Positions 471 through 31,691 of a stretch of DNA of 64,000 nucleotides are shown here, one piece after another. The stretch is from Lachnospirales bacterium (GTDB taxonomy: Bacteria > Bacillota > Clostridia > Lachnospirales > CAMZNU01): NCBI GenBank assembly GCA_047973385.1, contig JBKEBX010000024.1, positions 5 to 64,004 on the forward strand. Reading direction: 5' to 3'. The notes under the pieces were generated by a model. That model had not been told where the DNA came from. It did no database searches and saw only the letters and a list, made by a program, of their open reading frames with translations. The stretch's first letter is position 1; each line of letters begins with the position of its first letter. The translations under genes were made by a program, and so were the position numbers.

Positions 471-780
471 ATTACAATAATCTTAAGTTCTAGCCTTGTT
501 TTCGAGGCTAGGACTTTAGTATATTATATCATAAAGTAATTTCCAAAGGAAATTACAATATTCTTATGTCGTAGCTGTCTTTTGGTAGCTAGGACTTTAG
601 TATATTATATCATAAAGTAATTTCCAAGGAAATTACAATATTCTTATGTCGTAGCTGTCTTTTGGTAGCTAGGACTTTAGTATATTATATCATAAAGTAA
701 TTTCCAAAGGAAATTACAATAATCTTAATGTGTAGCTGTACTTTATGTAGCTACGCATTTAGTTTATTATACCATAAATA
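471..780. repeat. Tandem array A of the 81-bp double-hairpin repeat (about 4 units)
   Basis: Units start at 471, 552, 632 and 713 (period 80-81 bp). Each unit has the palindrome GTAATTTCC-AAA-GGAAATTAC, a second hairpin (490-511 CTAGCCTTG-TTTT-CGAGGCTAG; 572-591 TAGCTGTC-TTTT-GGTAGCTA), and a minus-strand TGATATAAT (e.g. rc of 523-531). The fourth unit is the variant type seen in array C. Confidence 0.9.
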
Positions 781-854
781 ACTTGACAATAAAACTATTT
801 TAATATATTGTTAATATATAAAAGTAAATAAAACAAAAAGGAGAAATATAATAT

Positions 855-1325
855 ATGAATACAGATTTTGTAACACTAGAAATACGCAAAGTTAAAGATA
901 TAGCTTTAATTGCTCACGATAGTAAAAAAGCTGATTTAATAAATTGGTGTATCAAAAATAAAAGCATTTTGGAAAAACACAAATTATATGGAACAGGCAC
1001 AACAGCAAGAATGATAACTGACAAAGTAGGACTTAAAGTTAAAGGATATTCTTCAGGACCACTTGGAGGTGACCAACAAATAGGTGCAAAAATAGTTGAA
1101 AATGTAATAGATTTTGTAATATTTTTTAGCGACCCGCTTACAGCTCAACCACATGACCCTGACGTAAAGGCGCTACTTCGTGTATCTCAAGTTTATGATA
1201 TACCTATCGCAACGAACAAATCAACAGCTGATTTTATGATAACAAGTACATATATGGACGAAATTTATGAACACACTGTTGTAAACTTTAAAAAACAAGT
1301 TGAAGAACGTTCTAAAAATATGTAA
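855..1325 (+). CDS. mgsA: Methylglyoxal synthase
   Basis: 156 aa. IALIAHDSKK...LYGTGTTA...SGPLGGDQQIGA...DPLTAQPHDPDVKALLR matches the MgsA family signature. AGGAG RBS upstream. Confidence 0.95.
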   Translation: MNTDFVTLEIRKVKDIALIAHDSKKADLINWCIKNKSILEKHKLYGTGTTARMITDKVGLKVKGYSSGPLGGDQQIGAKIVENVIDFVIFFSDPLTAQPHDPDVKALLRVSQVYDIPIATNKSTADFMITSTYMDEIYEHTVVNFKKQVEERSKNM

Positions 1326-1330
1326 ATACA

Positions 1331-1515
1331 AGTAAAAATGGCGACCTTGCAAAATATAGAAAAATCCATTTTCATAGCAAAACAACAGCTTTGCGACTTT
1401 GACTAAAATTGTAAAAAGGGCATGTTAATACAGTTCCCGTCGTTTATCAAAAGTATGAAAATTTGGTTTTTATTTTGCAATATGCCATTATTTCGATTTT
1501 CTGGCGTTTCCATAT
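1331..1515 (+). repeat. Dispersed intergenic repeat, copy E1 (long form)
   Basis: Left module AGTAAAAATGGCGACCTTGCAAAATATAGAAAAATCCATTTTCATAGCAAAACA. Right module CAAAAGTATGAAAATTTGGTTTTTATTTTGCAATATGCCATTATTTCGATTTTCTGGCGTTTCCATAT. Related copies lie at 1844, 8008 (rc), 17265, 48745 and 62188. Confidence 0.8.
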
Positions 1516-1547
1516 GAAAGGGTCGAAAAAGTTTTTTTTAAAAAGTG

Positions 1548-1576
1548 TTGACAAAATAGTGAAGATGTTATATACT
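1548..1576 (+). promoter_or_regulatory. Sigma-A-type promoter for tRNA-fMet
   Basis: TTGACA (1548-1553), 17-nt spacer, TATACT (1571-1576), about 48 nt upstream of the tRNA. Confidence 0.5.
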
Positions 1577-1623
1577 AATATAGTACTAATTAACACGTTA
1601 TGTAAGTGTTGATATAATAATAA

Positions 1624-1696
1624 CGCGGGGTGGAGCAGTTGGCAGCTCGTCGGGCTCATAACCCGAAGGTCGCAGGTTCGAGTCCTGCCCCCGCTA
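1624..1696 (+). tRNA. Initiator tRNA-fMet (anticodon CAT)
   Basis: CGCGGGGTGGAGCAGTTGGCAGCTCGTCGGGCTCATAACCCGAAGGTCGCAGGTTCGAGTCCTGCCCCCGCTA. It folds as a cloverleaf with a C1 x T72 mismatch and three G-C pairs (GGG/CCC) closing the CTCATAA anticodon loop, both initiator hallmarks. No CCA is encoded. Confidence 0.95.
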
Positions 1697-1708
1697 TTTT
1701 TTACTAAT

Positions 1709-1771
1709 AAAGCTTATAAAATAGGGATTTCTCAAAACTAGAAAAACTTATTTTATAGGCTTTATTTTTTT
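1709..1771 (+). terminator. Rho-independent terminator after tRNA-fMet
   Basis: 15-bp stem AAAGCTTATAAAATA (1709-1723) / TATTTTATAGGCTTT (1749-1763, one G.U), followed by a T-run at 1764-1771. The loop is unusually long (25 nt). Confidence 0.55.
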
Positions 1772-1843
1772 ACACTGTATTTATGGTTTATAACAATTAG
1801 GTTTATTAACATAACTAAAAATAATTTAACAGAAGTAAAAATG

Positions 1844-1994
1844 GCGACCTTGCAAAATGTAGAAAAATCCATTTTCATAGCAAAACAATGGCTTTGCTGT
1901 GTTTGTCAAAAGTATGAAAATTTGGTTTTTTTGCAATGTGCCATTATTTTAGTTTTCAGACGTTTCCAAATATTAATTTTGCAACGTTTCCATT
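1844..1994 (+). repeat. Dispersed intergenic repeat, copy E2
   Basis: AGTAAAAATGGCGACCTTGCAAAATGTAGAAAAATCCATTTTCATAGCAAAACAATGGCTTTGC...GTCAAAAGTATGAAAATTTGGTTTTTTTGCAATGTGCCATTATTTTAGTTTTCAGACGTTTCCAAAT. Direct copy of E1, lacking about 50 bp of E1's middle. Confidence 0.8.
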
Positions 1995-2170
1995 TATATA
2001 TTTTTATATAGATTGATAAGTAAAAAAGCTATCTGAGTATATTAAAAGATAGTGTTTATTTGTTCTAATCACGTGAAAACTTATCACAAGTTGTTAATAT
2101 TAAAAATACTGAACGCATTGAAAAATATAGGTTTTTAAAAGTTATATATATCTAGTAAATTAAACGAACT

Positions 2171-2262
2171 TATGTTATAATAAACTAAAGTCCTGGCTAC
2201 CAAAAGACAGCTATGACTTAAGCATATAATAATTTTCTTTGAAAATTACTATATGCTATAAC
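2171..2262. repeat. Array B: single unit of the 81-bp double-hairpin repeat (orientation as array D)
   Basis: TATGTTATAATAAACTAAAGTCCTGGCTACCAAAAGACAGCTATGACTTAAGCATATAATAATTTTCTTTGAAAATTACTATATGCTATAAC. The -10-like boxes TGTTATAAT and TGCTATAAC point toward the ORF starting at 2306. Confidence 0.75.
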
Positions 2263-2305
2263 AAATTATAGAAATATTAAAATTAAAATACAAGGAGATT
2301 TCCTT

Positions 2306-3034
2306 ATGTCATATATATTTATTTTTTTTGCCGTAGTTTATATGTTGATTGTAAAAATTTACAGTATACTATTTCAACTTACAGGACTTTCTAAACAAAA
2401 GTCACTTTTTCAAGTAGCTTCTATACTTACAAGTACTGGCTTTACAACAAAGGAAAGCGAAATTATTATTATTGATAATACAAGACGAAAGCTTGTTTTT
2501 TCTCTAATGATTTTTGGATACGCAAGTACAATTATATCCATATCTTTGGTAGTTTTTCTATTATTTCATAACTATTCGGCAACTCAATATATACTTATGT
2601 TTTTGTATATTTCTTTTTTCTATTTAATTGGAAATACTAAGTTTGTTACAATGACTTTAAAAAGCATTGTTAAAAAAGTAGGTAATAAGCATTTTTATGG
2701 AGAAAGTAATAATAGTATATTTGTTTTACTGGACTACGGAAATAAGGTTTTAGCAGAAATAAATATAAATCAATTACCTAAGTCCTTTAATGGTGTTCAA
2801 CTTAAAGATTTAGAAATTTTTCAAAAGTTTGAACTAAATTTATTATCAATACAAAGAAAAAACTTGAATATAACAACGGTAAATGACGACCATATTATTA
2901 AAGTTGGTGACCAACTTATTGTATATGGTGATATTATAAAAATGACCTATGTTTTTCAAACAATGATAAAAAATGATTTAGAAAAAGAAAATCAAGAAAT
3001 AGAAAATCAAGAAATAGAAAAAAAGGATAGTTAG
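2306..3034 (+). CDS. Small membrane protein with C-terminal TrkA-C (RCK_C)-like domain; possible minimal cation channel or regulator
   Basis: 242 aa. The N-terminus reads TM - FQVASILTSTGFTT - TM. The C-terminal half (VLAEININQLP...LKDLEIFQKFELNLLSIQR...IIKVGDQLIVYGD) looks like a TrkA-C/RCK_C fold. The tail has an ENQEI ENQEI repeat. Confidence 0.55.
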   Translation: MSYIFIFFAVVYMLIVKIYSILFQLTGLSKQKSLFQVASILTSTGFTTKESEIIIIDNTRRKLVFSLMIFGYASTIISISLVVFLLFHNYSATQYILMFLYISFFYLIGNTKFVTMTLKSIVKKVGNKHFYGESNNSIFVLLDYGNKVLAEININQLPKSFNGVQLKDLEIFQKFELNLLSIQRKNLNITTVNDDHIIKVGDQLIVYGDIIKMTYVFQTMIKNDLEKENQEIENQEIEKKDS

Positions 3035-3272
3035 TAAAATCCTGAAAAATGTTAGAAAAAAATATACTACACAAAAATTAGCATTCGACTTAGTGATTTG
3101 CAACACAAATCATATAGCCTGTAGCATAAAATAAGCGTTCATACTTCACTGTATTTTATGCAATCTCACTATTTTTGTTTACGTTTACACTACTATAATT
3201 TTTTTCTTTCGGACTTTATCAGCACGTTCCATAGTTAATTAAACAAGCTATCCTTTATGTGTTTCTTTTAAA

Positions 3273-3488
3273 TTATAATTTATTAGAAATCCCCATAGGT
3301 ATTTTAAAATCTGATGTTATTTTATCGTAACAATTTTCACATAATATAAAAGAGTGTATTTCATTATCGTATTTTGATGGATAGTCCCATCTATTTTGAA
3401 CCTTTAAAAAGCTTGTACTATTACAAGACTTACTACACATATTACAAACTTTTTTATGTCCTTTATTTTTAGGATAATATCTACGCAA
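3273..3488 (-). CDS. Hypothetical small Cys-rich (zinc-ribbon-like) protein
   Basis: 71 aa with CNMC...CN and CENC pairs. TTG start preceded by AAGGTGGTGA. No homology recognised. Confidence 0.35.
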   Translation of the reverse strand: MRRYYPKNKGHKKVCNMCSKSCNSTSFLKVQNRWDYPSKYDNEIHSFILCENCYDKITSDFKIPMGISNKL

Positions 3489-3606
3489 AACATCTCACCA
3501 CCTTTTTTACTTTTACGATAAAATTATACACTAATTTACAAGCTTTATCAATATTATGTTCAAAAAATATAACAAATATTCTTCTTTATAAAACTAGGAG
3601 GTTTTA

Positions 3607-4329
3607 ATGAAATTTTTAATAGATAGTCACGTTCATTCCCTTTCAAGCGGCCATGCTTATGCTACAATTTATGAAAATATAATTCATGCTAAAAAATTAG
3701 GTTTAGAAGCAATTGCAATTACCGATCATGCTCCTGAGATGCCAGGAACTTGCCATTTATTCCATTTTAACAATTTAAAAGTAATACCTAAAGTTGTTGA
3801 AGGTGTAAGAGTTTTTACTGGTATAGAGCTTAATATATTAGATGTAAACGGTAAAATTGATGCTCCAGAATATACGCTTAAAATGTTAGATGTTAAAATA
3901 GCTAGTATTCATGAAATTTTAAACGATGTAGATGGAATAGAAAATATTACAAAAACCTATGTAAATACAATTAAAAATAACAATATAAATGTAATAGGTC
4001 ACCCTTGTGATATACGTTACCCTTTTAATATTGAAGAAGTTGTTCTTGCCGCTAAGGAACATAATGTTGCTTTTGAAATAAATAATTGTTCTTTAAATAA
4101 AACTTCATATCGTTATGACCCTGATGAGTCAATAATTGATTTGCTTATGTGTTGCAAAAAACATAATGTGTTTGTAACTTGTGGTTCAGATTCTCACTAC
4201 TTAGACACTTTAGGTAATTTTGATAATACATACGAACTTCTATCTCGTATTGATTTTCCAGAAAAACTTATTTTAAATGCAAATTTACAACTTTTCGAAG
4301 ACTTTGTTCAAAGTCATAAAAATAAATAA
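3607..4329 (+). CDS. PHP-domain phosphatase (YcdX-like)
   Basis: 240 aa. IDSHVHS...GHAY...AITDHAPEMPG...GHP...GSDSH are the metal-ligand motifs of the PHP/YcdX family. AGGAGG RBS. Confidence 0.85.
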   Translation: MKFLIDSHVHSLSSGHAYATIYENIIHAKKLGLEAIAITDHAPEMPGTCHLFHFNNLKVIPKVVEGVRVFTGIELNILDVNGKIDAPEYTLKMLDVKIASIHEILNDVDGIENITKTYVNTIKNNNINVIGHPCDIRYPFNIEEVVLAAKEHNVAFEINNCSLNKTSYRYDPDESIIDLLMCCKKHNVFVTCGSDSHYLDTLGNFDNTYELLSRIDFPEKLILNANLQLFEDFVQSHKNK

Positions 4330-4355
4330 TAATAAATAAACGGGGGATTACTAAA

Positions 4356-4676
4356 ATGTCTGATAATTTAAAGAAGTATAATTATAATGATGAGGATATT
4401 CAAATTTTAGTTGATTTAATTTTATTAATTGATAACGAAGAAGATTGCAAAAAATTTTTAGCAGAGCTACTTAGCAAATCAGAATTTACAAGTATTACTC
4501 AAAGAATTAAAATTGCTCATATGCTCCAAGACGGTAAAAAATATCACGAAATTACAGAAACTACGAAAGCTTCAACTACTACAATAAGTAGAGTTAATAA
4601 AGTTTTATCAACTGAAAATAATATGTTTTATGTTATGTTGAAAAAATTAAATAAAATGAAGAAATTAGATAAATAA
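4356..4676 (+). CDS. TrpR-related YerC/YecD family protein
   Basis: 106 aa. FLAELLSKSEF..ITQRIKIAHML.DG..YHEI...T.ASTTTISRVNK matches the YerC/YecD family. Confidence 0.8.
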   Translation: MSDNLKKYNYNDEDIQILVDLILLIDNEEDCKKFLAELLSKSEFTSITQRIKIAHMLQDGKKYHEITETTKASTTTISRVNKVLSTENNMFYVMLKKLNKMKKLDK

Positions 4677-4686
4677 AGGAGTTTAC

Positions 4687-6879
4687 ATGGATTATTTACA
4701 AGGGTTAAACAAAGAACAAAAACAAGGCGTCTTACAAACCGAAGGCCCTTTACTTATTATAGCTGGTGCAGGTTCTGGAAAAACTCTTGTTCTTACTCAT
4801 AGAATATCCCATCTTATTGAACAAGGGATTATGCCAAGTAATATACTTGCTATAACTTTTACGAATAAAGCAGCTAAAGAAATGAAAGAACGTGCAGTTA
4901 ACTTAAATCCAAAGGCTATTGCTTCAACTATTTGTACCTTTCATTCTTTTTGTGTGCGTGTTTTAAGACGAGAACTTAATATACTAGGTCTTGGTGGAAA
5001 CTTTGTAATATACGATGGTGATGATAGTCTAAAGGTGATAAGAGCAATTTTAAAAGAAAAGGGTATTGAAAAAAACGAGCGAATTAAGCCTAAAAGTGTT
5101 TTATCATATATTTCAGGTCTTAAAAACGATTTTGTAACTCCCGAAGAAGCTATGGCACAAGATAAACACGATTACTATTACGAAATCTTAAGCGAGATTT
5201 ACATGGAGTATGAAAAAGCTTTAATAAAATACAATGCCTTTGATTTTAACGATATACTTCTTAAAGCAGTTCAACTTTTTGATAGCTACCCAAATGTTTT
5301 AGAAAAGTATCAAGAAAAATTTAAATATATTATGGTTGATGAGTATCAAGATACAAATACTGTTCAGTATATGCTTGTTCGACAACTTGCTTTTAAATAT
5401 AAAAATATTTGTGTTGTTGGTGATGATGACCAAAGTATTTATGGTTGGCGTGGTGCGGATATTACTAATATTCTGAATTTTGAAAAGGATTATAGTAATG
5501 CTAAAATGTTAAAACTTGAACAAAACTATCGTTCAACTAATGTTATACTTAAAGCTGCCAATAACTTGATTAAACATAACAAAAATCGTAGAGATAAAAA
5601 TCTTTGGAGCGATAGCACAGACAGTAACCCTATTATTTGTAGAAGCTCTGGAAACGATTTTGAAGAAGCAAGATTTGTAGTTTCAGAAATACAAAAGATT
5701 ACGAAAGATAATAAATTTAACGAAATTGCTATACTATATAGAACTAATAATCAATCACGTCTATTTGAAGATGAATTTATACGTTTAAATATACCATACC
5801 AAATCTATGGGGGCGTAAAGTTTTATGACCGTAAAGAAGTTAAAGATATTTTGGCATATTTAAAATATATTTATAATACTAAAGATGAAATTTCTTTAAA
5901 ACGTATTATTAATGAGCCTAAACGAAGTATTGGAACGGTTACGGTCGGTAAATTGGACAACTATTCAAATATAAATAATACATACATTTTAAATGTTTTA
6001 AAAGATGTTGGAGATATAAAAGAATTTAAAAATTCTAGTAAAAAGCTGACTGAATTTTATAAACTAATTGAATATTTAATTGATTTTTCGAGTAAATCAA
6101 CAGTTAAAGATTTGACTTTAGAAGTTATAAAAGCTACTAAATACGAAGATGAACTTTTACTTGAAAATACTGATGAGGCAAGAACACGTATTTCGAATAT
6201 TTATGAACTTGTAGCAAAGGCTGATGAATTTAACAAGATTTATCCCGACGGAACTCTTGGCGAGTTTTTAGAAGAAGTATCTCTTGTAGCTGATGTGGAT
6301 GCCTATGATGAAAATACACCTAAAGTTGTGCTTATGACACTGCATACATCTAAAGGCTTGGAGTTTGAAAACGTTTTCCTTGTAGGTCTTGAAGAAAACC
6401 TATTCCCAAGTATAAATTCTTCTATTGATTTTGATTTAGATGACGAAAAAATCGAAGAAGAACGCCGTTTAATGTATGTTGGTATAACCCGTGCTAAGAA
6501 AAAGTTATATCTTACAAACGCTAATTGCCGTAGACAGTTTGGTAATATGGTTTATAATAAATCTTCGAGATTTATAGACGAAATACCAAAAGATTTACTT
6601 GACCTACCAAAAGAAATAAAGTCAAAATCTACATCATCACCGTCACTTAAATCTATGCTAAATAGCAGAAAAACTACTTCTCTTAAGGACTATTTTGATG
6701 ATAAGCCAAAAAATAAATCCTTAGATTTTGAAGTTGGTGATAAAGTTCGACATATGAAGTATGGTGTATGTGAAGTTTTAGAAATAACTCCTGCAGGTGC
6801 AGACTTTCAAGTTAAACTTAACACAAAGCTTGGGGAAAAATCTTGTATGGGTATTCTTGCTAGGCTTAAGAAAGCTTAA
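4687..6879 (+). CDS. pcrA: ATP-dependent DNA helicase PcrA (UvrD/Rep family)
   Basis: 730 aa. AGAGSGKT Walker A, VDEYQDTN, YGWRGA, EQNYRST, TLHTSKGLEF and VGITRAK motifs are all present. Confidence 0.95.
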   Translation: MDYLQGLNKEQKQGVLQTEGPLLIIAGAGSGKTLVLTHRISHLIEQGIMPSNILAITFTNKAAKEMKERAVNLNPKAIASTICTFHSFCVRVLRRELNILGLGGNFVIYDGDDSLKVIRAILKEKGIEKNERIKPKSVLSYISGLKNDFVTPEEAMAQDKHDYYYEILSEIYMEYEKALIKYNAFDFNDILLKAVQLFDSYPNVLEKYQEKFKYIMVDEYQDTNTVQYMLVRQLAFKYKNICVVGDDDQSIYGWRGADITNILNFEKDYSNAKMLKLEQNYRSTNVILKAANNLIKHNKNRRDKNLWSDSTDSNPIICRSSGNDFEEARFVVSEIQKITKDNKFNEIAILYRTNNQSRLFEDEFIRLNIPYQIYGGVKFYDRKEVKDILAYLKYIYNTKDEISLKRIINEPKRSIGTVTVGKLDNYSNINNTYILNVLKDVGDIKEFKNSSKKLTEFYKLIEYLIDFSSKSTVKDLTLEVIKATKYEDELLLENTDEARTRISNIYELVAKADEFNKIYPDGTLGEFLEEVSLVADVDAYDENTPKVVLMTLHTSKGLEFENVFLVGLEENLFPSINSSIDFDLDDEKIEEERRLMYVGITRAKKKLYLTNANCRRQFGNMVYNKSSRFIDEIPKDLLDLPKEIKSKSTSSPSLKSMLNSRKTTSLKDYFDDKPKNKSLDFEVGDKVRHMKYGVCEVLEITPAGADFQVKLNTKLGEKSCMGILARLKKA

Positions 6880-6902
6880 TCATCTATTAAACGAGGTTTA
6901 AA

Positions 6903-7973
6903 ATGACACTAGAAACTCTTAAAAAAATTTACCGAAGTAAAAATATAAACAAAGTATATAAAGTTAACAAAATGGAGATAAAAGCAAACTGGCATGAGCT
7001 TTTATATGATTTAATTTTTATAATATTTATAGAAAAAATTATAACTATATATATAACTTCTTCTCATACTGCTGATATTAAGTTTGTTTTTGAAATATTG
7101 TTAATTTCTATGATGATTTTGTGGGTATGGAATGAACGTGTACTTCAAACAAACCATATGTATATACTTGAAAATGAGTTAAATGTTCATATACCCCAAT
7201 ACAAATTTTTGATATATATTGAAATGACTATTTTACTACTTTTACTACACAAGCTTGGTACATACCCCTATATTTACTTTTTTGTTAGTATATTTTTAAT
7301 ATCTGTGGTCTTTGAATTTATCTGTATGGAGTGGATAAGACACAAATTGTTTAGTCGTTATAAAAGAGAGTCTAAGGAAATGTATGATGCTGCTAAATCA
7401 TTTTGGGAAATTCGAACAAATAGTATAAACATTGAACATATACTAGAGCGTTTTGGAGTTTTAACTATTTTGTTTTTAGGCGAAACAATGCGAGAAGTTT
7501 TTTTATCTGATACTCATCAACTTGTTTTAATATTGTTTTGTATAATTCTTTTTAATATATTTGAATCCAGCACAAAACTATCTGATTCCTTAAAAGAACA
7601 ATCTATCAAAGAAAGCACCGTTAAGTATAATGTGTTAACAAGATATTTACGACGTTCACTTATATTACTTTTGTTTTTAATTTTGGCTGTTGCCTATACT
7701 CATAAATATCATGTGGAATACCCAGTAATTTTAATTACTGTTATTCTGTTAAATAAGTTCCACCAAGAATATGCATTATTCAAACTTGGAAAAATCTCAT
7801 TAAATAAGTATGAGATAATGTATTATATATACTTGTTTTTCATTACTCTATATGTGTTGCTAATTAAAAACTATAATATATTCACATTGATACTGATTTC
7901 CGTTTTGGCAATTCTTACTATTTTTAAAGATAGTTATCATACTATTGATATTGGCATTGATTTCAAAGAATAA
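6903..7973 (+). CDS. Polytopic membrane protein, LtrA (low-temperature-requirement A)-like
   Basis: 356 aa, multi-TM. The N-terminal WHELLYDLIFIIFI resembles the LtrA WLELFFDLVFV motif. The true start may be the internal Met in KVNKMEIK. Confidence 0.45.
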   Translation: MTLETLKKIYRSKNINKVYKVNKMEIKANWHELLYDLIFIIFIEKIITIYITSSHTADIKFVFEILLISMMILWVWNERVLQTNHMYILENELNVHIPQYKFLIYIEMTILLLLLHKLGTYPYIYFFVSIFLISVVFEFICMEWIRHKLFSRYKRESKEMYDAAKSFWEIRTNSINIEHILERFGVLTILFLGETMREVFLSDTHQLVLILFCIILFNIFESSTKLSDSLKEQSIKESTVKYNVLTRYLRRSLILLLFLILAVAYTHKYHVEYPVILITVILLNKFHQEYALFKLGKISLNKYEIMYYIYLFFITLYVLLIKNYNIFTLILISVLAILTIFKDSYHTIDIGIDFKE

Positions 7974-7979
7974 AAAAAA

Positions 7980-8007
7980 TGTAAAGGTTAACCCTTTACA
8001 TTTTTTT
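7980..8007 (+). terminator. Rho-independent terminator
   Basis: TGTAAAGG-TTAAC-CCTTTACA (7980-8000) followed by TTTTTTT. Confidence 0.7.
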
Positions 8008-10132: not shown

Positions 10133-10336
10133 TTACTTACTTGCTAAATATTCATTAATTTTAGAAATTAAATCATCTACGTTTTGTCCATGAACAAAAC
10201 CTGCTTCTTCAAGAGTTTCAGCTTGAGCAGAAGGGCAACCAACACAATGCATCCCTGCTTCCATTAAAAATCTTGCTATTTCTCTATCCACAGTTAAAAT
10301 TTCTGATATAGTCATATCTTTAGTTACTTCAGCCAT
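10133..10336 (-). CDS. DUF1858 / hybrid-cluster-protein-associated redox disulfide domain protein
   Basis: 67 aa. MTISEIL...[23 protein letters not shown] is the typical DUF1858 CxxC motif. Confidence 0.8.
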
Positions 10337-10471
10337 TATTATTCCTCCATAATATTTAAGTTTTTATATAGTTACATAAAATTGATTTTATATTCAACAA
10401 AACCAACTAACATTGTTATTTTAACGCACAATTTCAAAAAAGTCAAGTAATTTACTATGAATTAGATAATT

Positions 10472-11170
10472 TTACTCATTTACTAATAATTTAAAGTTCG
10501 GTAAATATCTAAACAAAGGTTTTGCAACAACATAATCTTCTGGAACATAAGTATTATCCCAAAATCTGCTATCAATAGAATATTCTCTGTTATCTCCTAA
10601 AACAAAGTAATGGTCTTCAGGTACATTATATGGTCCAAAATCTCTTGTATCATTACCTTTAACATATCCTTCTTTAGCTAGACATTTATCATTTATATAA
10701 ACCTCACCATCAATAAGCTCAACAGTTTCACCAGGCATACCTATAACACGCTTTACATAAAGCTTACTAGGGTTATCTGGGAATTTGAAAACAATAATAT
10801 CAAATCGTTCAGGCTCCGAAAAAGTATATGCAAGCCTATTTGCAATAATTCTATCGCCTGTCATTATAGTATTTTCCATAGAGCTTGTGGGAATATCTGC
10901 ATTTACAATGATAAAACTATTAATAAAAAGTGCCACAATCACACAAAAAACAATAGTCTTTATCCAACTTATCACTTCATCTTTAAGTGGTTTTTTAGGC
11001 TCTTTTTCTTCATCTTCAGCTATTTCATCATCACTTTTATATCCATTATTAATTTTCATAATATATTCTTCTTTTAGTTTATTATAATCAACAGTATCTT
11101 TATCTTTATCTATTTCATTATATTCATTATCTATATTAACATTATTACCAATGTAATTTTCTTTATTCAT
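10472..11170 (-). CDS. lepB: Signal peptidase I
   Basis: 232 aa. TM anchor, then SSMENT (catalytic Ser box), VKRVIGMPGE and GDNREYSIDSRFW. Confidence 0.9.
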   Translation of the reverse strand: MNKENYIGNNVNIDNEYNEIDKDKDTVDYNKLKEEYIMKINNGYKSDDEIAEDEEKEPKKPLKDEVISWIKTIVFCVIVALFINSFIIVNADIPTSSMENTIMTGDRIIANRLAYTFSEPERFDIIVFKFPDNPSKLYVKRVIGMPGETVELIDGEVYINDKCLAKEGYVKGNDTRDFGPYNVPEDHYFVLGDNREYSIDSRFWDNTYVPEDYVVAKPLFRYLPNFKLLVNE

Positions 11171-11421
11171 CTATAAAACTTCCTCTCTAAATAATGCAAG
11201 TTTTAGGAAGATTCTTAAAATACTAATCAGAAATTTGAAAAGCATATTTTAATATTAAGTTTTTCTAATACACAATTTAAAAATAATTTCAAATCCGAAA
11301 AATGTTTTGAAACTTCAATTTCTCTATATATCTATATAAATATAGAGAACTCACAATCATACAAGCTATAAACATAGCTATCTATCTAATATATCTAATC
11401 TATCTATTTTATCTATTCAAT

Positions 11422-12012
11422 CTATCTATATATATCTGCATCATAAGTTTCTGTTAACTGATCTTCTTTTTTAGAATAAACATAAAAAGGTTTTGCAACT
11501 ATGTTCTCTCTAGGAACATATGTATTATCCCAAAATCTACTATCATAGGAGTATACCCTATGGTCACCTAAAACAAAATAATGTCCTTCTGGCACATTAT
11601 ACACACCAAAAGTCTTTGTAGGTACACCTTTTATATAATCTTCAACTAATAATTCATCATTTATATATACTTTTCCACTATCTATTTCAACTTTATCTCC
11701 AGGTAATCCAATTACACGTTTTACAAAAAGCGTACTTTCATCATCAGGAAACTTAAAAACAATTATATCCAATCTTTTTGGCTCATCAAAAGTATATGCA
11801 AACTTACTTGCAAAAATTCTATCATCAGTATTTATTGTGTTTTCCATTGAACCTGAAACAACAATTGCGTTTAAAAAAAATACAGTATTAATAAAATAAG
11901 ATATAACAAAACAAATTGTAATAATAAATATCCAATTTAACATTCTTTTCAAATGATTTTTATTATTTTTATTTTCTACATTTATAATTTTGTACTTTTT
12001 TTCACCATACAA
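11422..12012 (-). CDS. lepB: Signal peptidase I (second paralogue)
   Basis: 196 aa. SGSMENT, VKRVIGLPGD and GDHRVYSYDSRFW. Confidence 0.9.
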   Translation of the reverse strand: MYGEKKYKIINVENKNNKNHLKRMLNWIFIITICFVISYFINTVFFLNAIVVSGSMENTINTDDRIFASKFAYTFDEPKRLDIIVFKFPDDESTLFVKRVIGLPGDKVEIDSGKVYINDELLVEDYIKGVPTKTFGVYNVPEGHYFVLGDHRVYSYDSRFWDNTYVPRENIVAKPFYVYSKKEDQLTETYDADIYR

Positions 12013-12750
12013 GGATACCCCTCCAATAAACCATATACTTATAGTATATCATAAATATCGTATTTTTCAACAGTTATGTTGAAAAAAAATAAATAATTTA
12101 TAGTTTTCAACAAAAAAAAACCATGCGAACATAAAAAACACCTATTTTCTTGAATTTCTATTGTTGATAATTTTATAACTTTATCTATTTTACCTGTGGA
12201 TATGTGTATAACTTTGTTAATAACTTAATATTTCAAATTAAGTCCTTACTTTAAGCTATTTGTTATATTTAAGAATTTATATAAATCCCCAAAATAATGT
12301 TAATAACTTTTTACGAAAATATTACAAATGTTTGTCATAAAATTAATATCTAAACTTATTTTCGGTAAAAATCTAATTGATATTGTAAAAATACTATATT
12401 TTTAACGATTTCTTATAATATTGCAACTATTTTTGAAAAAATTTCATTTTTTTTAGCTGAAATTTACCATTCATAAAAGCTTTTGAATGTCAATAACAAA
12501 AAAAAGAAAAGTTATTAACATACCTTTTCTTTTTTAACACAAATATGCCACATTTTCCTGTTAGTAACTATATTAAAATTACTAATATCTTTGTGGATAT
12601 GTTTATAACTTTGTGTATAACTTTCATATTTCATTTTTATATTATAAAAATCTTGTAAAATAGCCCTTAAAAAACTAATTTTTTATTGTTTAATTTCTTA
12701 ATTCATAAAAATTGTTTTAAAAATCTGTTGATAAGTTTTTAATAATTTTT
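12013..12750. promoter_or_regulatory. 738-bp non-coding region with a cluster of DnaA-box-like 9-mers (candidate DnaA-box cluster outside oriC)
   Basis: Matches to TGTGGATAA (rc of TTATCCACA): 12162 TGTTGATAA, 12195 TGTGGATAT, 12203 TGTGTATAA, 12215 TGTTAATAA, 12298 TGTTAATAA, 12488 TGTCAATAA, 12512 TTATTAACA, 12592 TGTGGATAT, 12600 TGTTTATAA, 12612 TGTGTATAA, 12726 TGTTGATAA. Two 32-bp direct repeats (12195-12226 and 12592-12623, 29/32 identical) each carry three abutting boxes. No ORF is present in the track. Confidence 0.5.
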
Positions 12751-13851
12751 TTATTCTAGGTTTATATTTTTAGATGTTACATTATATGCTTTAAAATATC
12801 CCTTTGCAATAATTACACCTACACTAAAACCAATTATATGAGATAAATTACTTACATGTGGGAAGAAAAAACCAATTGATATAAGCATAAGAATACCTGC
12901 TAAAAACAAGTGTAACCCAAAATTTTCAACTTCTTTGTTTACATATAACAAAAGTATTAGCATAGCTCCTGCAAGACCACAAACGCCTGTTGTAGCACCA
13001 ATTGAAACTTTGTCGAGTATCAATAGCGTACTTATATTACCTATAAAAGAACTAAATATAAAGATTATAATAAAAGGCAGTTTACCCATATATCTTTCTA
13101 TTCTTACACCGAAAATAAATAACCATATAATTGTTGTAAAGAAATGTATAAAATCATCATACATTACCATAGGAAACAAGTTAAATAAAGAAAAATATCC
13201 TGTTGTTTCTGTAAAACTACTTTTATATGGCATAAAAAACACATATGCTATAAACAAAAATGCCCCAATTATAAAAGTTACAACTGCATCTTTTGAAACC
13301 ATTTTAAGCTTGGATTTTCTCCTTGCATTTTCTATTAACAAACTTATAGAAACTGGATTTTCTTCTATATAAGTCATATCTTTAATACTCTCAGTAACAA
13401 CTTCATTTAAGTTTAAAATTTTTGATGGTTGTTTATCTCCAATATAAAGCTTAGATATTTGATTTATCTCATCTATATGAACATTCCAATAAAAGTTATT
13501 AACAAAACTATTTGAACTAACTTCTTTACTTATTAAATCTTCTGCACTATTTTTTACATCTAAATCATCTGTTACAAAAATATTTAAAATTATAGTTTGT
13601 TTAAACTTTAAAACCATATGTCCAACATTAACTTGTTTACTTATTTGAGAAGTTACAAGTAAACTATAATCTATACTATTTTTTATATTATTATGAATAA
13701 TAACAATAAACAAATTTGGTCCATATGCTTTTTCTAACATAACAAAATCTGTTTCATTACTAATCATACTATTATCTTGTCCATTATTTAAACTTTTATA
13801 ACCTGTATCTATTAACTTTTCATATACATTTTTAATAAAATTTAAAAACAT
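12751..13851 (-). CDS. Rhomboid-family membrane protein with N-terminal cytoplasmic domain; catalytic Ser position reads Thr
   Basis: 366 aa. The C-terminal 6-TM core has HFFTTIIWLFIFGVRIERYMG (TM2 H...G..E..G), SIGATTGVCGLAGA (the place of GASGAIFG) and SHIIGFSVG (TM6 His). Confidence 0.75.
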   Translation of the reverse strand: MFLNFIKNVYEKLIDTGYKSLNNGQDNSMISNETDFVMLEKAYGPNLFIVIIHNNIKNSIDYSLLVTSQISKQVNVGHMVLKFKQTIILNIFVTDDLDVKNSAEDLISKEVSSNSFVNNFYWNVHIDEINQISKLYIGDKQPSKILNLNEVVTESIKDMTYIEENPVSISLLIENARRKSKLKMVSKDAVVTFIIGAFLFIAYVFFMPYKSSFTETTGYFSLFNLFPMVMYDDFIHFFTTIIWLFIFGVRIERYMGKLPFIIIFIFSSFIGNISTLLILDKVSIGATTGVCGLAGAMLILLLYVNKEVENFGLHLFLAGILMLISIGFFFPHVSNLSHIIGFSVGVIIAKGYFKAYNVTSKNINLE

Positions 13852-14094: not shown

Positions 14095-15450
14095 ATGAAA
14101 AAAATAATGTCAATAATACTTGCAGCTGGTACTGGTACGAGAATGAACTCTAAAAATCATAAGGTTTTACACAAAATCTTAGACAAAACTTTAATACAAT
14201 ATGTTGTAGAGGCAACAAAGGAAGTTCAATCAGAAAAAGATTGCGTAATTGTTGGTTATATGGCTGACGAAGTAAAATCAAATCTTGAAAAGTATGAAGC
14301 TTTGGAGTTTCCTGTTCAAAGTGAACAAAAAGGTACAGGTCATGCAGTTCTTATGGCAAAAAACTTTATTGATGAAAATTCCGATGTTATAATTTTATGT
14401 GGTGATACACCTCTTTTAAAATCATCAATGCTTAAAAAATTAGTAGAATCTCATCAAAACAATAATAACGATATTACTCTTGCTACTTGTAACCTTGATG
14501 ACCCATCAGGATATGGCAGAATAAACAAAGAAAATGGTAAAATAACTAAAATTGTTGAGCATAAAGATTGTGATGAAAATCAACTTAAAATTACTGAGAT
14601 AAATACTGGTGTTTATATTTTTAAAGGAGATGTTTTATTATCTTTACTTGGTAAAATAAAAAACGATAATGTTAAAGGTGAATACTATCTTACAGATACT
14701 ATCGAAATTGCTTTATCAGAAAACAAAACTGTTGAAAGTATTGTTTTTGATAACCCTGAACAATTTAATGGTATAAATACTAAGTTGCAACTCCACGATG
14801 CTGCTAAACTTATGCGTGAGCGAATTAATAAACAACATATGGAAAATGGTGTTGTTATAGTTGATTCAAACACAACTTATATTAGTAAAGATGTAAAAAT
14901 AGAAAAAGATACGGTTATATATCAAAATTGCCAAATCTTTGGTTCTACAACAATTGGTGAAGATTGCGAAATAGGCCCAAATACAAATATAAATACTATG
15001 AAAATCGGTAATGGTGTTTCTATTTTAAATTCTACTACTAACCAAAGTTCCATTGATGATAACACAACTGTTGGACCATACGCTTATGTAAGACCTAATT
15101 CTGAAATAGGGAAAAACGTTAAAATTGGTGACTTTGTTGAAGTTAAAAAAGCCAAAATTGGTAACAACACTAAAGCTTCCCATTTAACTTATATAGGCGA
15201 TTCAGTAGTTGGTGAAAATGTAAACTTTGGCTGTGGTACTATAACTGTTAACTATGACGGAAAAAACAAATTCCTTACAACTGTTGAAGACAATGTTTTC
15301 ATTGGTAGTAATGTTAACCTTATTGCACCTGTTACTATTGAAAAAAATTCTAAAGTCGCAGCAGGTACAACAGTTACTAAAAAAGTACCATCAAACGCAC
15401 TTGCTATCGGTCGTGTAAAACAAGATAACAAAGAAAACTATGTGAGATAG
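14095..15450 (+). CDS. glmU: Bifunctional GlcNAc-1-P uridyltransferase / GlcN-1-P acetyltransferase
   Basis: 451 aa. LAAGTGTRM, a GDTPLL-like motif and C-terminal hexapeptide repeats. Confidence 0.97.
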   Translation: MKKIMSIILAAGTGTRMNSKNHKVLHKILDKTLIQYVVEATKEVQSEKDCVIVGYMADEVKSNLEKYEALEFPVQSEQKGTGHAVLMAKNFIDENSDVIILCGDTPLLKSSMLKKLVESHQNNNNDITLATCNLDDPSGYGRINKENGKITKIVEHKDCDENQLKITEINTGVYIFKGDVLLSLLGKIKNDNVKGEYYLTDTIEIALSENKTVESIVFDNPEQFNGINTKLQLHDAAKLMRERINKQHMENGVVIVDSNTTYISKDVKIEKDTVIYQNCQIFGSTTIGEDCEIGPNTNINTMKIGNGVSILNSTTNQSSIDDNTTVGPYAYVRPNSEIGKNVKIGDFVEVKKAKIGNNTKASHLTYIGDSVVGENVNFGCGTITVNYDGKNKFLTTVEDNVFIGSNVNLIAPVTIEKNSKVAAGTTVTKKVPSNALAIGRVKQDNKENYVR

Positions 15451-30570: not shown

Positions 30571-31691
30571 AAACCCTCCTTCGTTAGTTTAACAGTTAGT
30601 TACTCAAGTAATTAACTAAATAATATCATAAAAACTAATTGTTGTCAATATCTAAATTTAAGGGAATATCTAAAAACTTGATTTTAAAAAAATTTTAGAT
30701 ATTCCTTTGTAAAGTTTTCCACAGATTTTTTTACAATAATAACTTTTTTTCAAGTAAAATGTTAAAAATTATATAGTAAAATAAAGTTTATGTATTTTTT
30801 GTTAAATTTCTATTAAGATTTTTTGTTAAACTACACTTTTCAACAAAAAATAATCCTTTAAAATCATAGTTATTAACAAAGTTACTAACATTGTGTTAAT
30901 AACTTTGTATTTCTCATATTATAGCCATTTAGTAGAGTTTTAAAAAGATTTGTGTATAAATATTGATTTTTATAAAAAAACCTTTATTATAGCCATTTTT
31001 TCTTGTGATAACTTGTTTATAACTTTTTAATTTAAAAATAAGTTATTATTGTTGTTGATAACTATATTTTAAACATTTTTATTTATATTGATATACCTAA
31101 AATATTAAATATATATTTTTTCAACAAAAAGTTATAAACATCTTTGTTAATATTTTTAATGTTTAAAACTATTAGTTTTTTAGCTATAAAATCATAAAAA
31201 ATCTGATGTTTGTGCATAAAATTCACTTGTTAACATAGTCATTTGAAAGTTTTACACAGGACTTTACCTTATTATGAGTATATTATATATATAAATTGTT
31301 AATAAATATTTTCCACAGGAGTTTTTTTTTTAGATTTTTAAAAATAGCCTGTCTATTAATATATTAATATTTTTTATTTATTTTATATTATTTATATATT
31401 TATTATTAATAATTAATTATAAGATAAAAATATAAATTGGTGGAAGAAATATATAAAAAACTATTTACAATATGGCGAAAAACATTTAAAATATATATAG
31501 AGTTAATTGTAAGAAAATATAATTTCTTGTAATAATTAAATATAGTTAAGTAAATTAATATAAATTATCATAAATTTTTATTGTAATAAAATGTTAAAAA
31601 TTTAATAAAAGACAATATAATTTATGATGTTTTTTTTAATATATATTTTAATAATATTTTTCATTTATAAATTTAAAATAATATTTTAATA
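30571..31691. other. Chromosomal replication origin region (oriC): DnaA-box cluster plus AT-rich unwinding region
   Basis: Forward boxes: TTTTCCACA at 30715-30723 and 31309-31317, TTTTACACA at 31250-31258, TTATAAACA at 31132. Reverse boxes: TGTTAATAA at 30894 and 31297, TGTGTATAA at 30951, TGTTTATAA at 31014, TGTTGATAA at 31054, TGTGCATAA at 31211. The region lies between the minus-strand rpmH block and plus-strand dnaA, where gene orientation switches. Confidence 0.8.
31321..31691. other. Extreme-AT tract, candidate DNA unwinding element
   Basis: About 370 bp almost devoid of G/C (e.g. TATTAATATATTAATATTTTTTATTTATTTTATATTATTTATATATTTATTATTAATAATTAATTATAAG), immediately right of the last TTTTCCACA box and abutting dnaA. 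Confidence 0.55.

What the first reader, a model, noticed from the sequence alone, without database searches (positions are those of the whole stretch)
12013..12750. Second cluster of DnaA-box-like motifs in a 738-bp gene-free gap about 19 kb from dnaA
In an otherwise tightly packed region, the gap between lepB (start 12012) and the rhomboid gene (stop 12751) has no ORF. It holds at least 11 matches, with 1-2 mismatches, to the DnaA box in rc form TGTGGATAA. Two of these are TGTGGATAT (12195, 12592). Two 32-bp direct repeats about 400 bp apart (12195-12226 TGTGGATATGTGTATAACTTTGTTAATAACTT; 12592-12623 TGTGGATATGTTTATAACTTTGTGTATAACTT) each consist of three abutting boxes. The extended motif TGTnnATAACTT is shared with the oriC region itself (e.g. 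30894-30905 and 31014-31025). The stretch between the repeats is AT-rich. Bacillus has DnaA-box clusters outside oriC that titrate DnaA, and E. coli has datA. This could be such a locus, a DnaA-regulated promoter for lepB, or a displaced half of a bipartite origin, given that no DnaA boxes can fit between dnaA and dnaN here.
Basis: partly seen in the sequence, partly recalled or inferred. Interest (0 to 1): 0.6.

Follow-up and report, generated by a model that had tools for sequence, protein, structure and literature searches.

The report
Conserved DnaA-box cluster upstream of lepB
The 738-bp gap is a real, evolutionarily conserved cluster of binding sites for the replication initiator DnaA, 19 kb from the true origin; it most likely soaks up DnaA rather than starting replication, a kind of element already known from Bacillus subtilis.

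Summary
The gap 12013-12750 has 9 TTATNNACA boxes, where 0.64 are expected from its own composition (0 of 2000 shuffles reach 9). The only other cluster in the 64-kb window is oriC, upstream of dnaA. Ten of eleven boxes point towards lepB. Two triple arrays (box-12 bp-box-8 bp-box) lie 397 bp apart.

Five further lineages of the same uncultured low-GC "Lachnospirales" clade carry 7-11 boxes at the same place, and all five have the distal triple array. Four of them are seen directly upstream of lepB. In one MAG the rhomboid gene has moved away and the cluster stayed with lepB, 8.7 kb from oriC. Forty-five lepB loci from other bacteria have no such cluster.

The triple array is the origin-type array: in a metagenome scan it falls next to dnaA or dnaN in 15 of 80 loci, and in clostridial dnaA-dnaN spacers it directly precedes the DnaA-trios.

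The gap is not an origin. GC3 skew switches at 30.5-34.5 kb, and the gap has no DUE-like AT-rich tract and no GC cluster. It shows no conserved ORF and no RNA family or convincing structure.

Best reading: an origin-proximal DnaA-box cluster of the B. subtilis DBC type, possibly also affecting lepB transcription. This is a new member of a known kind, of moderate interest.

The parts
12013..12750 (.). Whole intergenic DnaA-box cluster (DBC) between the rhomboid stop and the lepB start
   Evidence: 9 TTATNNACA plus 2 ATATCCACA boxes, against 0.64 TTATNNACA expected. Conserved in five further lineages.
12726..12734 (-). Single box TTATCAACA, 17 bp after the rhomboid stop
   Evidence: Aligned with a box in relatives (columns 219-243).
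12592..12623 (-). Distal triple array: TTATACACA-AAG-TTATAAACA overlapping ATATCCACA (start-to-start 12 and 8 bp)
   Evidence: The only block conserved in all six lineages (columns 345-380). Same architecture as the clostridial BUS box array.
12571..12591 (-). AAG + ATA TTA GTA ATT TTA ATA: conserved TATTAATAA-like element after the distal array; trio-like, or a degenerate inverted box
   Evidence: Conserved in all six lineages (columns 383-391). An NTN run of 6 or NTA run of 3 occurs at 2.5-4% of positions in the gap. It pairs with the next box in the alifold consensus.
12559..12567 (-). Degenerate box TTACTAACA at the position of a conserved TTATCAACA box in relatives
   Evidence: columns 401-410, D1.
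12500..12535 (.). 16-nt A/T-rich palindrome enclosing the only reverse-oriented box, TTATTAACA (12512-12520, +). A possible weak bidirectional terminator for rhomboid read-through
   Evidence: I9 (94% complementary). The reverse box is conserved in 5 of 6 lineages (columns 448-460); the palindrome is not.
12488..12496 (-). Box TTATTGACA (the conserved 'TTGACA' box)
   Evidence: columns 476-487.
12298..12306 (-). Box TTATTAACA (AAGTTATTAACA)
   Evidence: D5.
12195..12226 (-). Proximal triple array: TTATTAACA-AAG-TTATACACA overlapping ATATCCACA, followed by GG
   Evidence: Conserved in the window, L011 and L009 (columns 766-800), 359-397 bp from the distal array.
12162..12170 (-). Box TTATCAACA, the last strong box, about 90 bp upstream of the lepB -35
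12064..12112 (.). Three weak TTTTCAACA sites (12064 +, 12077 -, 12104 +). The first two converge around the -35 (the first overlaps it) and are not conserved in relatives
   Evidence: absent near the L009 and L011 promoters.
12043..12070 (-). Predicted lepB promoter: TTGAAA-16-TG-n-TATACT
   Evidence: 10 of 12 matches, TG present. A similar TTGAAA/TTGTAT ... TGnTATATT is seen in L011 and L009 (columns 1001-1030).
10133..12012 (-). Downstream unit: lepB (11422-12012), second lepB (10472-11170) and DUF1858 (10133-10336)
   Evidence: Pfam. The same gene order follows the cluster in L006, L009, L010 and L011.
12751..13851 (-). Rhomboid protease gene. Its 3' end abuts the cluster; it is not an obligatory neighbour
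   Evidence: Pfam. In GCA_047974615.1 it is followed by another gene and no boxes (L002), while the cluster sits before lepB (L009).
30571..31691 (.). The real oriC, upstream of dnaA: 8 TTATNNACA boxes plus TTTTCCACA/TTTTACACA, and a 6%-GC tract at about 31320-31460
   Evidence: The GC3-skew switch lies at 30.5-34.5 kb.

Best explanation
The gap is a DnaA-box cluster (DBC) outside oriC.

Anatomy. About 11-14 DnaA boxes of the clade's own type, (AAG)TTAT[C/T/A][A/C]ACA, are spread over 570 bp, and nearly all point the same way. They include two triple arrays with the same spacing as the arrays that launch DnaA oligomers at clostridial origins.

Mechanism (inferred). DnaA binds the arrays through domain IV, and ATP-DnaA oligomerises along the duplex from them. 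Because there is no GC-cluster/trio/AT-rich unwinding module, nothing is melted. The locus simply holds a dozen or more DnaA molecules.

Consequence (inferred). The locus sits 19 kb from oriC (8.7 kb in a relative), so it is duplicated within seconds of initiation. That doubles the sink and lowers free DnaA at the origin, as the oriC-proximal DBCs of B. subtilis do. Bound DnaA upstream of the lepB-lepB-DUF1858 promoter may in addition modulate that operon.

Shown versus inferred. Shown: the boxes, their excess over chance, their sharing with oriC, their conservation, their architecture, and the absence of origin signatures. Inferred: DnaA occupancy, titration, and any effect on lepB.
For: Excess over chance, and the same motif as oriC.

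Specificity. In about 190 kb of clade DNA, clusters occur only at rpmH/dnaA-upstream spacers (window, L009, L214, L215) and at this locus: upstream of lepB in the window, L006, L009, L010 and L011, and downstream of rhomboid in L005, whose contig ends before any lepB.

Conservation. Six lineages carry 7-11 boxes here, although their rhomboid proteins are only 36-42% and their LepB 51-58% identical. The boxes are the only long k-mers they share, and the distal triple array aligns in all six.

Linkage. In GCA_047974615.1 the cluster is retained upstream of lepB after rhomboid moved away, still 8.7 kb from oriC and inverted relative to it.

Control. 45 lepB loci of other bacteria, mostly Firmicutes, have 0-2 boxes upstream.

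The array is a DnaA element. The pattern scan lands within ~0.5 kb of dnaA or dnaN in 15 of 80 metagenome loci. In L111 and L142 the array is followed by GGCC/GCCC + CTACTACTATTACTACTA, the clostridial unwinding module described in PMC7561715.

DnaA itself. Domain IV keeps the equivalents of R399, P423, D433, H434 and T435 (residue list from PMC2533591).

Precedent. B. subtilis has six DBCs, mostly oriC-proximal. Deleting them causes early initiation, and such DBCs were predicted to be common in Firmicutes (PMC3245932).
Against: There are no binding or functional data; the organism is an uncultured MAG. Only 64 kb of this genome was available, so I cannot say whether this is one of several DBCs or how it ranks among them. 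The persistent linkage and co-orientation with lepB fit a transcriptional role at least as well as titration. DnaA of this genome seems to lack the first ~50 residues of domain I, so its oligomerisation behaviour may be atypical.
Confidence: 0.6

Rival explanations
1. The main role is transcriptional. DnaA bound to the cluster represses or activates the lepB-lepB-DUF1858 operon, coupling signal-peptidase supply to replication status, as DnaA does for sda, ywlC and yydA in B. subtilis.
For: The cluster always precedes lepB wherever the downstream gene is visible (window, L006, L009, L010, L011) and stayed with it when rhomboid left. In the window 10 of 11 boxes are co-oriented with lepB, with a similar bias in L005, L009 and L011. 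Two weak TTTTCAACA sites converge around the -35 in the window, one overlapping it. B. subtilis DBCs do regulate their neighbours (PMC2533591).
Against: The strong boxes end ~90 bp upstream of the -35 in the window, and the last boxes lie roughly 200-280 bp upstream of lepB in L011 and L009. The promoter-overlapping weak sites are not conserved. Eleven or more boxes over 570 bp, with two origin-type arrays, is far more than an operator needs. The linkage rests on a single rearrangement whose breakpoint could have fallen on either side by chance.
Confidence: 0.2
2. It is a displaced oriC2: an origin-type DnaA assembly site that loops to oriC 19 kb away, or acts as a secondary unwinding site. 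It would replace the dnaA-dnaN sub-origin that this clade has lost.
For: The dnaA-dnaN spacers are 8-16 bp throughout the clade. The gap carries two copies of exactly the box array that precedes the trios in clostridial oriC2. The distal array is followed, after 3 nt, by ATA TTA GTA ATT TTA ATA. This meets the loose BUS rule of box, spacer of at most 16 nt, and (.A.){3,} (PMC8287927), and the element is conserved, with six NTA in a row in L006.
Against: GC3 skew is negative on both sides of the gap and switches only at 30.5-34.5 kb. The gap has no AT-rich tract like oriC: minimum 13% GC against 6%. There is no GC cluster, and only some triplets fit (C/T)T(A/T). A trio run of this quality occurs at 2.5-6% of positions in the gap and oriC and after about 3-5% of boxes elsewhere in the window, and it can equally be read as a degenerate inverted box. 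L009 has a good box-trio-DUE module inside its own dnaA-upstream spacer. The orientation of the cluster relative to oriC is inverted between the window and L009. No bipartite origin with halves 19 kb apart is known.
Confidence: 0.05
3. It is a leftover: an ancestral origin fragment, or a duplicated piece of oriC, with no present function.
For: The arrays are origin-type. The genome shows other decay, such as the 5' end of dnaA.
Against: The boxes are kept in six lineages whose flanking spacer sequence has diverged beyond easy alignment. There is no extended similarity between the gap and oriC beyond the box arrays.
Confidence: 0.07
4. It is not a DnaA element at all: the sites of another DNA-binding protein, an unannotated small protein or RNA gene, or a chance feature of AT-rich DNA.
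For: The boxes differ from the textbook TTATCCACA at positions 5-6. The H439 equivalent of DnaA is Ser here and Ala in L009.
Against: The same motif clusters only at dnaA-upstream spacers elsewhere in the clade. The array pattern finds dnaA-adjacent DNA in unrelated Firmicutes. Chance is excluded. There is no Rfam match with E below 7. The only consensus RNA structure is box-on-box pairing at -4.9 kcal/mol. Stop-free segments match between lineages only over 41 aa or less, in several frames and on both strands.
Confidence: 0.03

Closest known systems
[quoted passage not shown]
   Same: An intergenic, dense cluster of DnaA boxes. It uses the same motif as the organism's oriC, lies near the origin, and sits upstream of a gene it might regulate. 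Its position is conserved among related species.
   Different: It lies next to different genes (lepB, not sda, ywlC and so on). It belongs to a different, uncultured Clostridia lineage. It is larger (570 bp) and is organised around two origin-type triple arrays ~360-400 bp apart. No binding or deletion data exist.
E. coli datA
   Same: A non-origin DnaA-box locus proposed to lower initiation potential after it is replicated.
   Different: datA works through IHF-dependent hydrolysis of DnaA-ATP on a few specific boxes and lies 470 kb from oriC. There is no sequence or architectural similarity. An IHF site was not looked for, and IHF is not expected in Firmicutes (own knowledge).
Clostridial and Bacillus basal unwinding system (BUS) in oriC2 (Richardson 2016/2019; Pelliciari 2021 PMC8287927; C. 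difficile PMC7561715)
   Same: The box-12-box-8-box array ending ...CACAGG matches the three boxes that precede the DnaA-trios in clostridial dnaA-dnaN spacers (L111, L142), in spacing and in orientation.
   Different: It lacks the GC cluster, a clear (C/T)TA trio run and the AT-rich unwinding element. It is not next to dnaA, and GC skew shows no initiation here.
Box clusters downstream of spoIIE in other low-GC Clostridia (found here in metagenome loci L103, L124, L163, L165)
   Same: A non-oriC intergenic cluster of 7-8 TTATNNACA boxes that includes the same triple array.
   Different: A different genomic neighbour and different organisms. They were seen only in passing, and I did not check whether they are described in the literature.

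Membership tests
DnaA-box cluster outside oriC (B. subtilis-type DBC) | Local density of DnaA boxes comparable to oriC and far above background | tested here: met
   TTATNNACA density is 12.2/kb in the gap and 7.1/kb in oriC, with 2 boxes in the other 10.7 kb of spacers. Own-composition shuffles give 0.64 against 9 observed.
DnaA-box cluster outside oriC (B. subtilis-type DBC) | The boxes are the organism's own DnaA recognition motif | tested here: met
   The same AAGTTATNNACA motif clusters in the dnaA-upstream spacers of the window, L009, L214 and L215. The array pattern finds dnaA-adjacent DNA in other Firmicutes. The base-contact residues of DnaA domain IV are mostly kept.
DnaA-box cluster outside oriC (B. 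subtilis-type DBC) | Located outside the origin and not itself an initiation site | tested here: met
   It lies 19 kb from dnaA. The GC3-skew switch is at 30.5-34.5 kb only, and the gap has no tract of 8% GC or less.
DnaA-box cluster outside oriC (B. subtilis-type DBC) | Origin-proximal position | tested here: met
   19 kb from oriC in the window and 8.7 kb in L009. In L010, parAB lies 6 kb away.
DnaA-box cluster outside oriC (B. subtilis-type DBC) | Stable DnaA occupancy in vivo (ChIP/ChAP) | not testable with these tools
   Uncultured MAG; no experimental data.
DnaA-box cluster outside oriC (B. subtilis-type DBC) | Deletion advances initiation; an extra copy delays it | not testable with these tools
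   Needs genetics in a cultivable relative or a heterologous host.
Replication origin / basal unwinding system (BUS) | Tandem DnaA boxes oriented towards the unwinding site | tested here: met
   The two triple arrays have the same spacing as the L111 and L142 BUS arrays.
Replication origin / basal unwinding system (BUS) | GC cluster followed by at least 3 DnaA-trios, 3'-(G/A)A(T/A)-5' | tested here: inconclusive
   There is no GC cluster after the distal array (AAG), and only GG after the proximal one. The distal array is followed by six NTN or three NTA triplets. That meets the loose rule but occurs at 2.5-6% of positions in the gap and oriC. The element is conserved in six lineages but can also be read as an inverted degenerate box.
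Replication origin / basal unwinding system (BUS) | Adjacent AT-rich DNA unwinding element | tested here: not met
   The lowest 100-bp window is 13% GC. oriC reaches 6% and has 97 windows at 8% or less.
Replication origin / basal unwinding system (BUS) | Strand-compositional switch (GC skew) at the site | tested here: not met
   GC3 skew is negative for genes on both sides, whatever their strand (lepB -0.46, rhomboid -0.39, glmU -0.35). The best-fitting switch is at 30.5-34.5 kb.
E. coli datA | IHF-binding site between essential boxes; promotes DnaA-ATP hydrolysis | not tested
   No IHF site was searched for. The mechanism cannot be assessed in silico.
DnaA-regulated promoter | DnaA boxes overlapping or close to the -35/-10 or the transcription start, conserved with the promoter | tested here: inconclusive
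   Only weak, non-conserved TTTTCAACA sites lie at the -35 in the window. Strong boxes end ~90 bp upstream of the -35 here, and the last boxes lie roughly 200-280 bp upstream of lepB in L011 and L009.

The most novel reading that the evidence does not exclude
In a clade that has lost the dnaA-dnaN sub-origin, the lepB-upstream locus is the relocated oriC2. Its two BUS-type box arrays, one with a conserved trio-like tail, would cooperate over 9-19 kb with the dnaA-upstream region by DnaA-mediated looping, or would act as a conditional second unwinding site. That would be a long-range bipartite origin.
Probability: 0.05. Interest if true: 0.8.

Novelty: new member of a known kind. Interest (0 to 1): 0.38.

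Why it matters
DBCs outside oriC have been studied experimentally almost only in B. subtilis, plus datA/DARS in E. coli and Streptomyces. Okumura et al. predicted that origin-proximal DBCs are common in Firmicutes that lack SeqA and Hda.

This locus is a clean comparative example from Clostridia. It is conserved across six divergent lineages, stays near the origin through rearrangements, and is built from the same triple-box array that launches DnaA oligomers at clostridial origins. That suggests DBCs may be made by re-using the double-stranded half of the origin unwinding module without its single-stranded half, an idea that can be tested in vitro with cloned arrays. The box-12-box-8-box pattern is also a practical search key for origins and DBCs in low-GC Firmicutes.

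The result does not open a new kind of biology, and the host is uncultured.

Tried and rejected
1. An exact look-up of the rhomboid protein given as window coordinates found nothing. The identical sequence was later found as P0001 on a Logan contig.

2. The first genome-contig scan, with the rhomboid protein, found no relatives. The second, with a LepB alignment, returned only distant lepB loci (best 50% identity) and none from the clade. I used these as a negative control.

3. Rfam found nothing at gathering thresholds in the gap, and only one meaningless hit at E=7.5 in the permissive search.

4. A search for a conserved small ORF found only short matches, in several frames and on both strands, caused by the boxes.

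5. RNAalifold on three blocks and both strands gave 0 kcal/mol, except one -4.9 kcal/mol structure that is simply boxes pairing with inverted boxes.

6. The intrinsic-terminator scan found none in the gap.

7. A parS search found no site in or near the gap.

8. blastn of the gap against oriC, to test for a duplication of oriC, found only box arrays and low-complexity AT matches.

9. I tried to tie the H439-to-Ser/Ala change in DnaA to the C-to-A change at box position 6. The papers I could read list the contact residues but do not say which base H439 contacts, so this remains a conjecture.

10. An iteron or plasmid/phage replicon origin was rejected: there is no rep gene, the flanks are housekeeping genes, and synteny is conserved.
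Full report
**The locus.** The window is ~27% GC. NCBI names its closest relatives "MAG: Lachnospirales bacterium", and identical LepB and DnaA proteins sit on a 64,435-bp NCBI MAG contig. Pfam confirms the flanks: Peptidase_S26 (lepB) at 11422-12012 (-), a second lepB at 10472-11170 (-), DUF1858 at 10133-10336 (-), Rhomboid at 12751-13851 (-) and glmU at 14095-15450 (+). The gap therefore lies downstream of rhomboid and upstream of a lepB-lepB-DUF1858 unit. dnaA (31692-32903) and dnaN (from 32914) are 10 bp apart. Upstream of dnaA is a 1.1-kb spacer at 15.5% GC.

- TTATCCACA with <=1 mismatch has 32 matches in the window, 6 of them in the 738-bp gap. With <=2 mismatches the gap has 14, or 19/kb, against 4.7/kb in other spacers and 11.6/kb in oriC.
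- The local form of the box is (AAG)TTATNNACA. GTTATNNACA occurs 17 times in the window: 7 in the gap, 5 in oriC and 5 in the remaining 62 kb. Shuffles give a mean of 5 and a maximum of 12.
- TTATNNACA occurs 9 times in the gap, 8 in oriC, 2 in all other stretches counted as intergenic (~10.7 kb) and 22 in 51 kb of coding DNA. That intergenic set included ~0.6 kb of small genes (yidD, rnpA, rpmH), found later.
- Dinucleotide shuffles of the gap itself give 0.64 +/- 0.78, with a maximum of 5; 0 of 2000 reach 9.
- The two 32-bp repeats exist and extend to 65 nt at 72% identity, 397 bp apart.
- Ten of the eleven NTATNNACA boxes are on the lepB-coding strand.

**Anatomy.** I read along the lepB strand, with window coordinates descending:
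- a single box (12734-12726);
- the distal triple array AAGTTATACACA-AAGTTATAAACA-TATCCACA (12623-12592; start-to-start 12 and 8 bp);
- AAG, then ATATTAGTAATTTTAATA;
- a degenerate box (12567-12559);
- the only reverse box (12512-12520), inside a 16-nt A/T palindrome;
- TTATTGACA (12496-12488);
- TTATTAACA (12306-12298);
- the proximal triple array AAGTTATTAACA-AAGTTATACACA-TATCCACA-GG (12226-12195);
- TTATCAACA (12170-12162);
- three weak TTTTCAACA sites;
- a good extended -10 promoter, TTGAAA-16-TGnTATACT (12070-12043), followed by GGAGGGG and the lepB start.

**Relatives.** The rhomboid protein has only four homologues among 5.8 billion proteins, so the lineage is poorly sampled. Context look-ups gave five further lineages:
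- L005: rhomboid 42% identical; the contig ends 560 bp after rhomboid.
- L006 (with its variants L007 and L008) and L010: rhomboid, then a gap of 656-681 bp, then lepB and DUF1858.
- L011: rhomboid, a 932-bp gap, then lepB, lepB and DUF1858.
- L009.

Each gap carries 7-11 TTATNNACA boxes. The only 10-12-mers shared by five or six of the sequences are box variants such as AAGTTATCAACA. In the MAFFT alignment the distal triple array, a following TATTAATAA element and the next box are conserved in all six. The reverse box is conserved in five of six, and the TTGACA box in four (window, L005, L011, L009). The proximal triple array is conserved in the window, L011 and L009, 359-397 bp from the distal one. 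The spacer between boxes is otherwise barely alignable.

L009 is the informative case. In GCA_047974615.1 rhomboid is followed after 160 bp by another gene, with no boxes (L002). The cluster instead sits in a 986-bp gap between a T2SSE gene and lepB-lepB-DUF1858, 8.7 kb from the oriC of that genome and inverted relative to it. In the 18.9-kb locus the only 500-bp bins with at least 3 boxes are that gap (10 boxes) and the rpmH-dnaA spacer (15 boxes). In L214 and L215 (DnaA 74% and 62% identical) clusters occur only in the rpmH-dnaA spacer. L013, from the same assembly as L215, has a 181-bp lepB upstream gap with no boxes. The cluster therefore seems confined to the subclade whose DnaA is at least 72% identical.

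As a wider control, I examined 45 of the 80 lepB loci returned from GTDB species representatives. Most were Firmicutes, three of them at 27-32% GC. They have 0-2 boxes in the 1 kb upstream of lepB and no cluster anywhere in the locus.

**Are these DnaA sites?** Three lines of evidence say so.
- The motif clusters at dnaA-upstream spacers in four genomes of the clade.
- DnaA domain IV keeps the equivalents of E. coli R399, P423, D433, H434 and T435. The H439 equivalent is Ser in the window and Ala in L009 (residue list from PMC2533591). This may relate to the relaxed positions 5-6 of the box, but I could not verify that.
- I scanned JGI/ENA metagenome contigs with the array pattern TTNTNNACANNNTTANNAACATNTNNACA. 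Fifteen of the 80 lie within ~0.5 kb of dnaA or dnaN, representing about 8 lineages; essentially none would be expected by position alone.

In L111 and L142 the array sits in the dnaA-dnaN spacer. It reads TTTTACACA-TAC-TTATTAACA-TATTCACA, then GGCC or GCCC, then CTACTACTATTACTACTA, then AT-rich DNA. This is the arrangement described for C. difficile and other clostridia: three boxes, a GC cluster, DnaA-trios and a DUE (PMC7561715). It is also the BUS of Pelliciari et al. (PMC8287927). The two arrays in the gap are therefore origin-type DnaA launching pads.

**Is the gap an origin or part of one?** The evidence says no.
- GC3 skew on the + strand is negative for every gene from 9 to 31 kb regardless of coding strand (lepB -0.46, rhomboid -0.39, glmU -0.35). 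From 32.3 kb rightwards it is positive or near zero (-0.03 to +0.60), again regardless of coding strand. A two-parameter fit puts the switch at 30.5-34.5 kb (weighted RSS 1672-1678, against 3357 for a switch at 12.5 kb).
- The gap has no unwinding-type tract. Its most AT-rich 100-bp window is 13% GC, while oriC reaches 6% and has 97 windows at 8% or less.
- No GC cluster follows the distal array. The six NTN (three NTA) triplets after it meet the loose BUS rule. However, comparable runs occur at 2.5-6% of positions in the gap and oriC and after about 3-5% of boxes elsewhere in the window, and eleven boxes were tested. The conserved TATTAATAA can equally be read as a degenerate inverted box that pairs with the next box.
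- L009 has a convincing module inside its own dnaA-upstream spacer: TTTTCACA-ATTA-TTTTTCACA-AT-CTACTACCATTATTATTATTA, followed by AT-rich DNA.
- dnaA-dnaN gaps are 8-16 bp in the whole clade. A monopartite origin upstream of dnaA is therefore the ancestral state here and needs no distant partner.
- blastn shows no similarity between the gap and oriC beyond the box arrays.

**Other readings.** No Rfam family matches with E below 7. There is no consensus RNA structure beyond box-on-box pairing. There is no conserved ORF and no parS. In four relatives a clear terminator follows rhomboid before the cluster begins, and a conserved promoter lies just before lepB. The cluster is thus a free-standing element between two transcription units.

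**Mechanism.** My best account is that DnaA occupies the 11-14 boxes. The two triple arrays nucleate ATP-DnaA oligomers that extend on duplex DNA towards lepB. With no trio/DUE module nothing melts. The locus acts as an origin-proximal reservoir that doubles right after initiation and lowers free DnaA, as shown genetically for the B. subtilis DBCs. In that work, deleting six DBCs caused early initiation, a single DBC partly complemented, and DBCs were noted to lie near oriC in many Firmicutes (PMC3245932; PMC2533591).

A secondary or alternative effect on lepB transcription is plausible, because the cluster stays with lepB and is co-oriented with it. But the distance from the promoter and the size of the cluster argue against a simple operator. 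Everything after "boxes are present, conserved and origin-type" is inference.

**Comparison and novelty.** Functionally and by definition this fits the DBC class. I tested four sequence-level criteria (density, own motif, non-origin, origin-proximal) and all were met. The two experimental criteria cannot be tested here. It is not a datA homologue, and it fails two defining tests for an origin.

I did not find the lepB association, or the construction from two BUS-type arrays, described in the papers I searched ('lepB' occurs 0 times in PMC7561715). I rate it a new member of a known kind, of moderate interest (0.38). The most novel reading still open is a long-range bipartite origin, at about 5%.

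Noticed in passing
window 31553-31728: dnaA appears truncated at its 5' end. The ORF starts at TTG 31692 and encodes 403 aa, against 447-450 aa in all clade relatives. The 140 bp upstream, in the same frame, still aligns to the N-terminus of L009 DnaA but carries four in-frame TAA codons, and the conserved domain-I Trp is lost (FLL**NV against FLWNET). Either the first ~50 residues of domain I have decayed in this genome, or the MAG has four substitution errors. NCBI also annotates the 403-aa form.
   Followed up: partly
window 32550-32903; L009 16271-16600: In DnaA domain IV the equivalent of E. coli H439, a base-contacting residue, is Ser in the window. In L009 it is Ala, and T435 is Ser. 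The clade's boxes favour TTATCAACA/TTATTAACA over TTATCCACA. A causal link is conjecture.
   Followed up: partly
L009 17700-17830; window 31400-31470: L009 has a clear box-trio-DUE module just upstream of dnaA: TGTGAAAAC/TGTGAAAAA boxes, TAG TAG TGG TAA TAA TAA trios and an AT-rich tract. The homologous stretch in the window looks degraded (GGTGGAAGA, TATAAAAAA), mostly by changes from G or C to A.
   Followed up: partly
L103 2888-3241; L124 1568-1698; L163 1439-1757; L165 2874-3193: In other low-GC Clostridia from metagenomes, a cluster of 7-8 TTATNNACA boxes that includes the same triple array lies immediately downstream of spoIIE. Pfam confirms SpoIIE in L103, L124 and L163. This looks like another DnaA-box cluster outside oriC.
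   Followed up: partly
L131 4790-5038: A human-gut contig with phage genes (capsid scaffolding protein, minor capsid protein 2) has 15 DnaA-type boxes in 250 bp, ten in one orientation followed by five in the other, in a 360-bp spacer. This may be a phage-borne DnaA-binding array.
   Followed up: partly
window 28547-30570: A three-gene unit (unknown 259 aa, ABC ATPase, GntR-family regulator) sits between rpmH (28172-28309) and oriC. rpmH is therefore not adjacent to the origin, unlike in L009, L214 and L215.
   Followed up: partly
window 1-8000: The + strand genes at 0.8-8 kb have GC3 skew scattered around zero (-0.35 to +0.17), unlike the uniformly negative 9-31 kb block. This may mark a recent rearrangement or acquired DNA.
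   Followed up: no
clade DnaA proteins P0125-P0131: None of the clade's DnaA proteins has a precomputed hit to the DnaA_N domain (PF11638), whereas essentially all Clostridium DnaA proteins in the same list do. Domain I is divergent throughout the clade.
   Followed up: no
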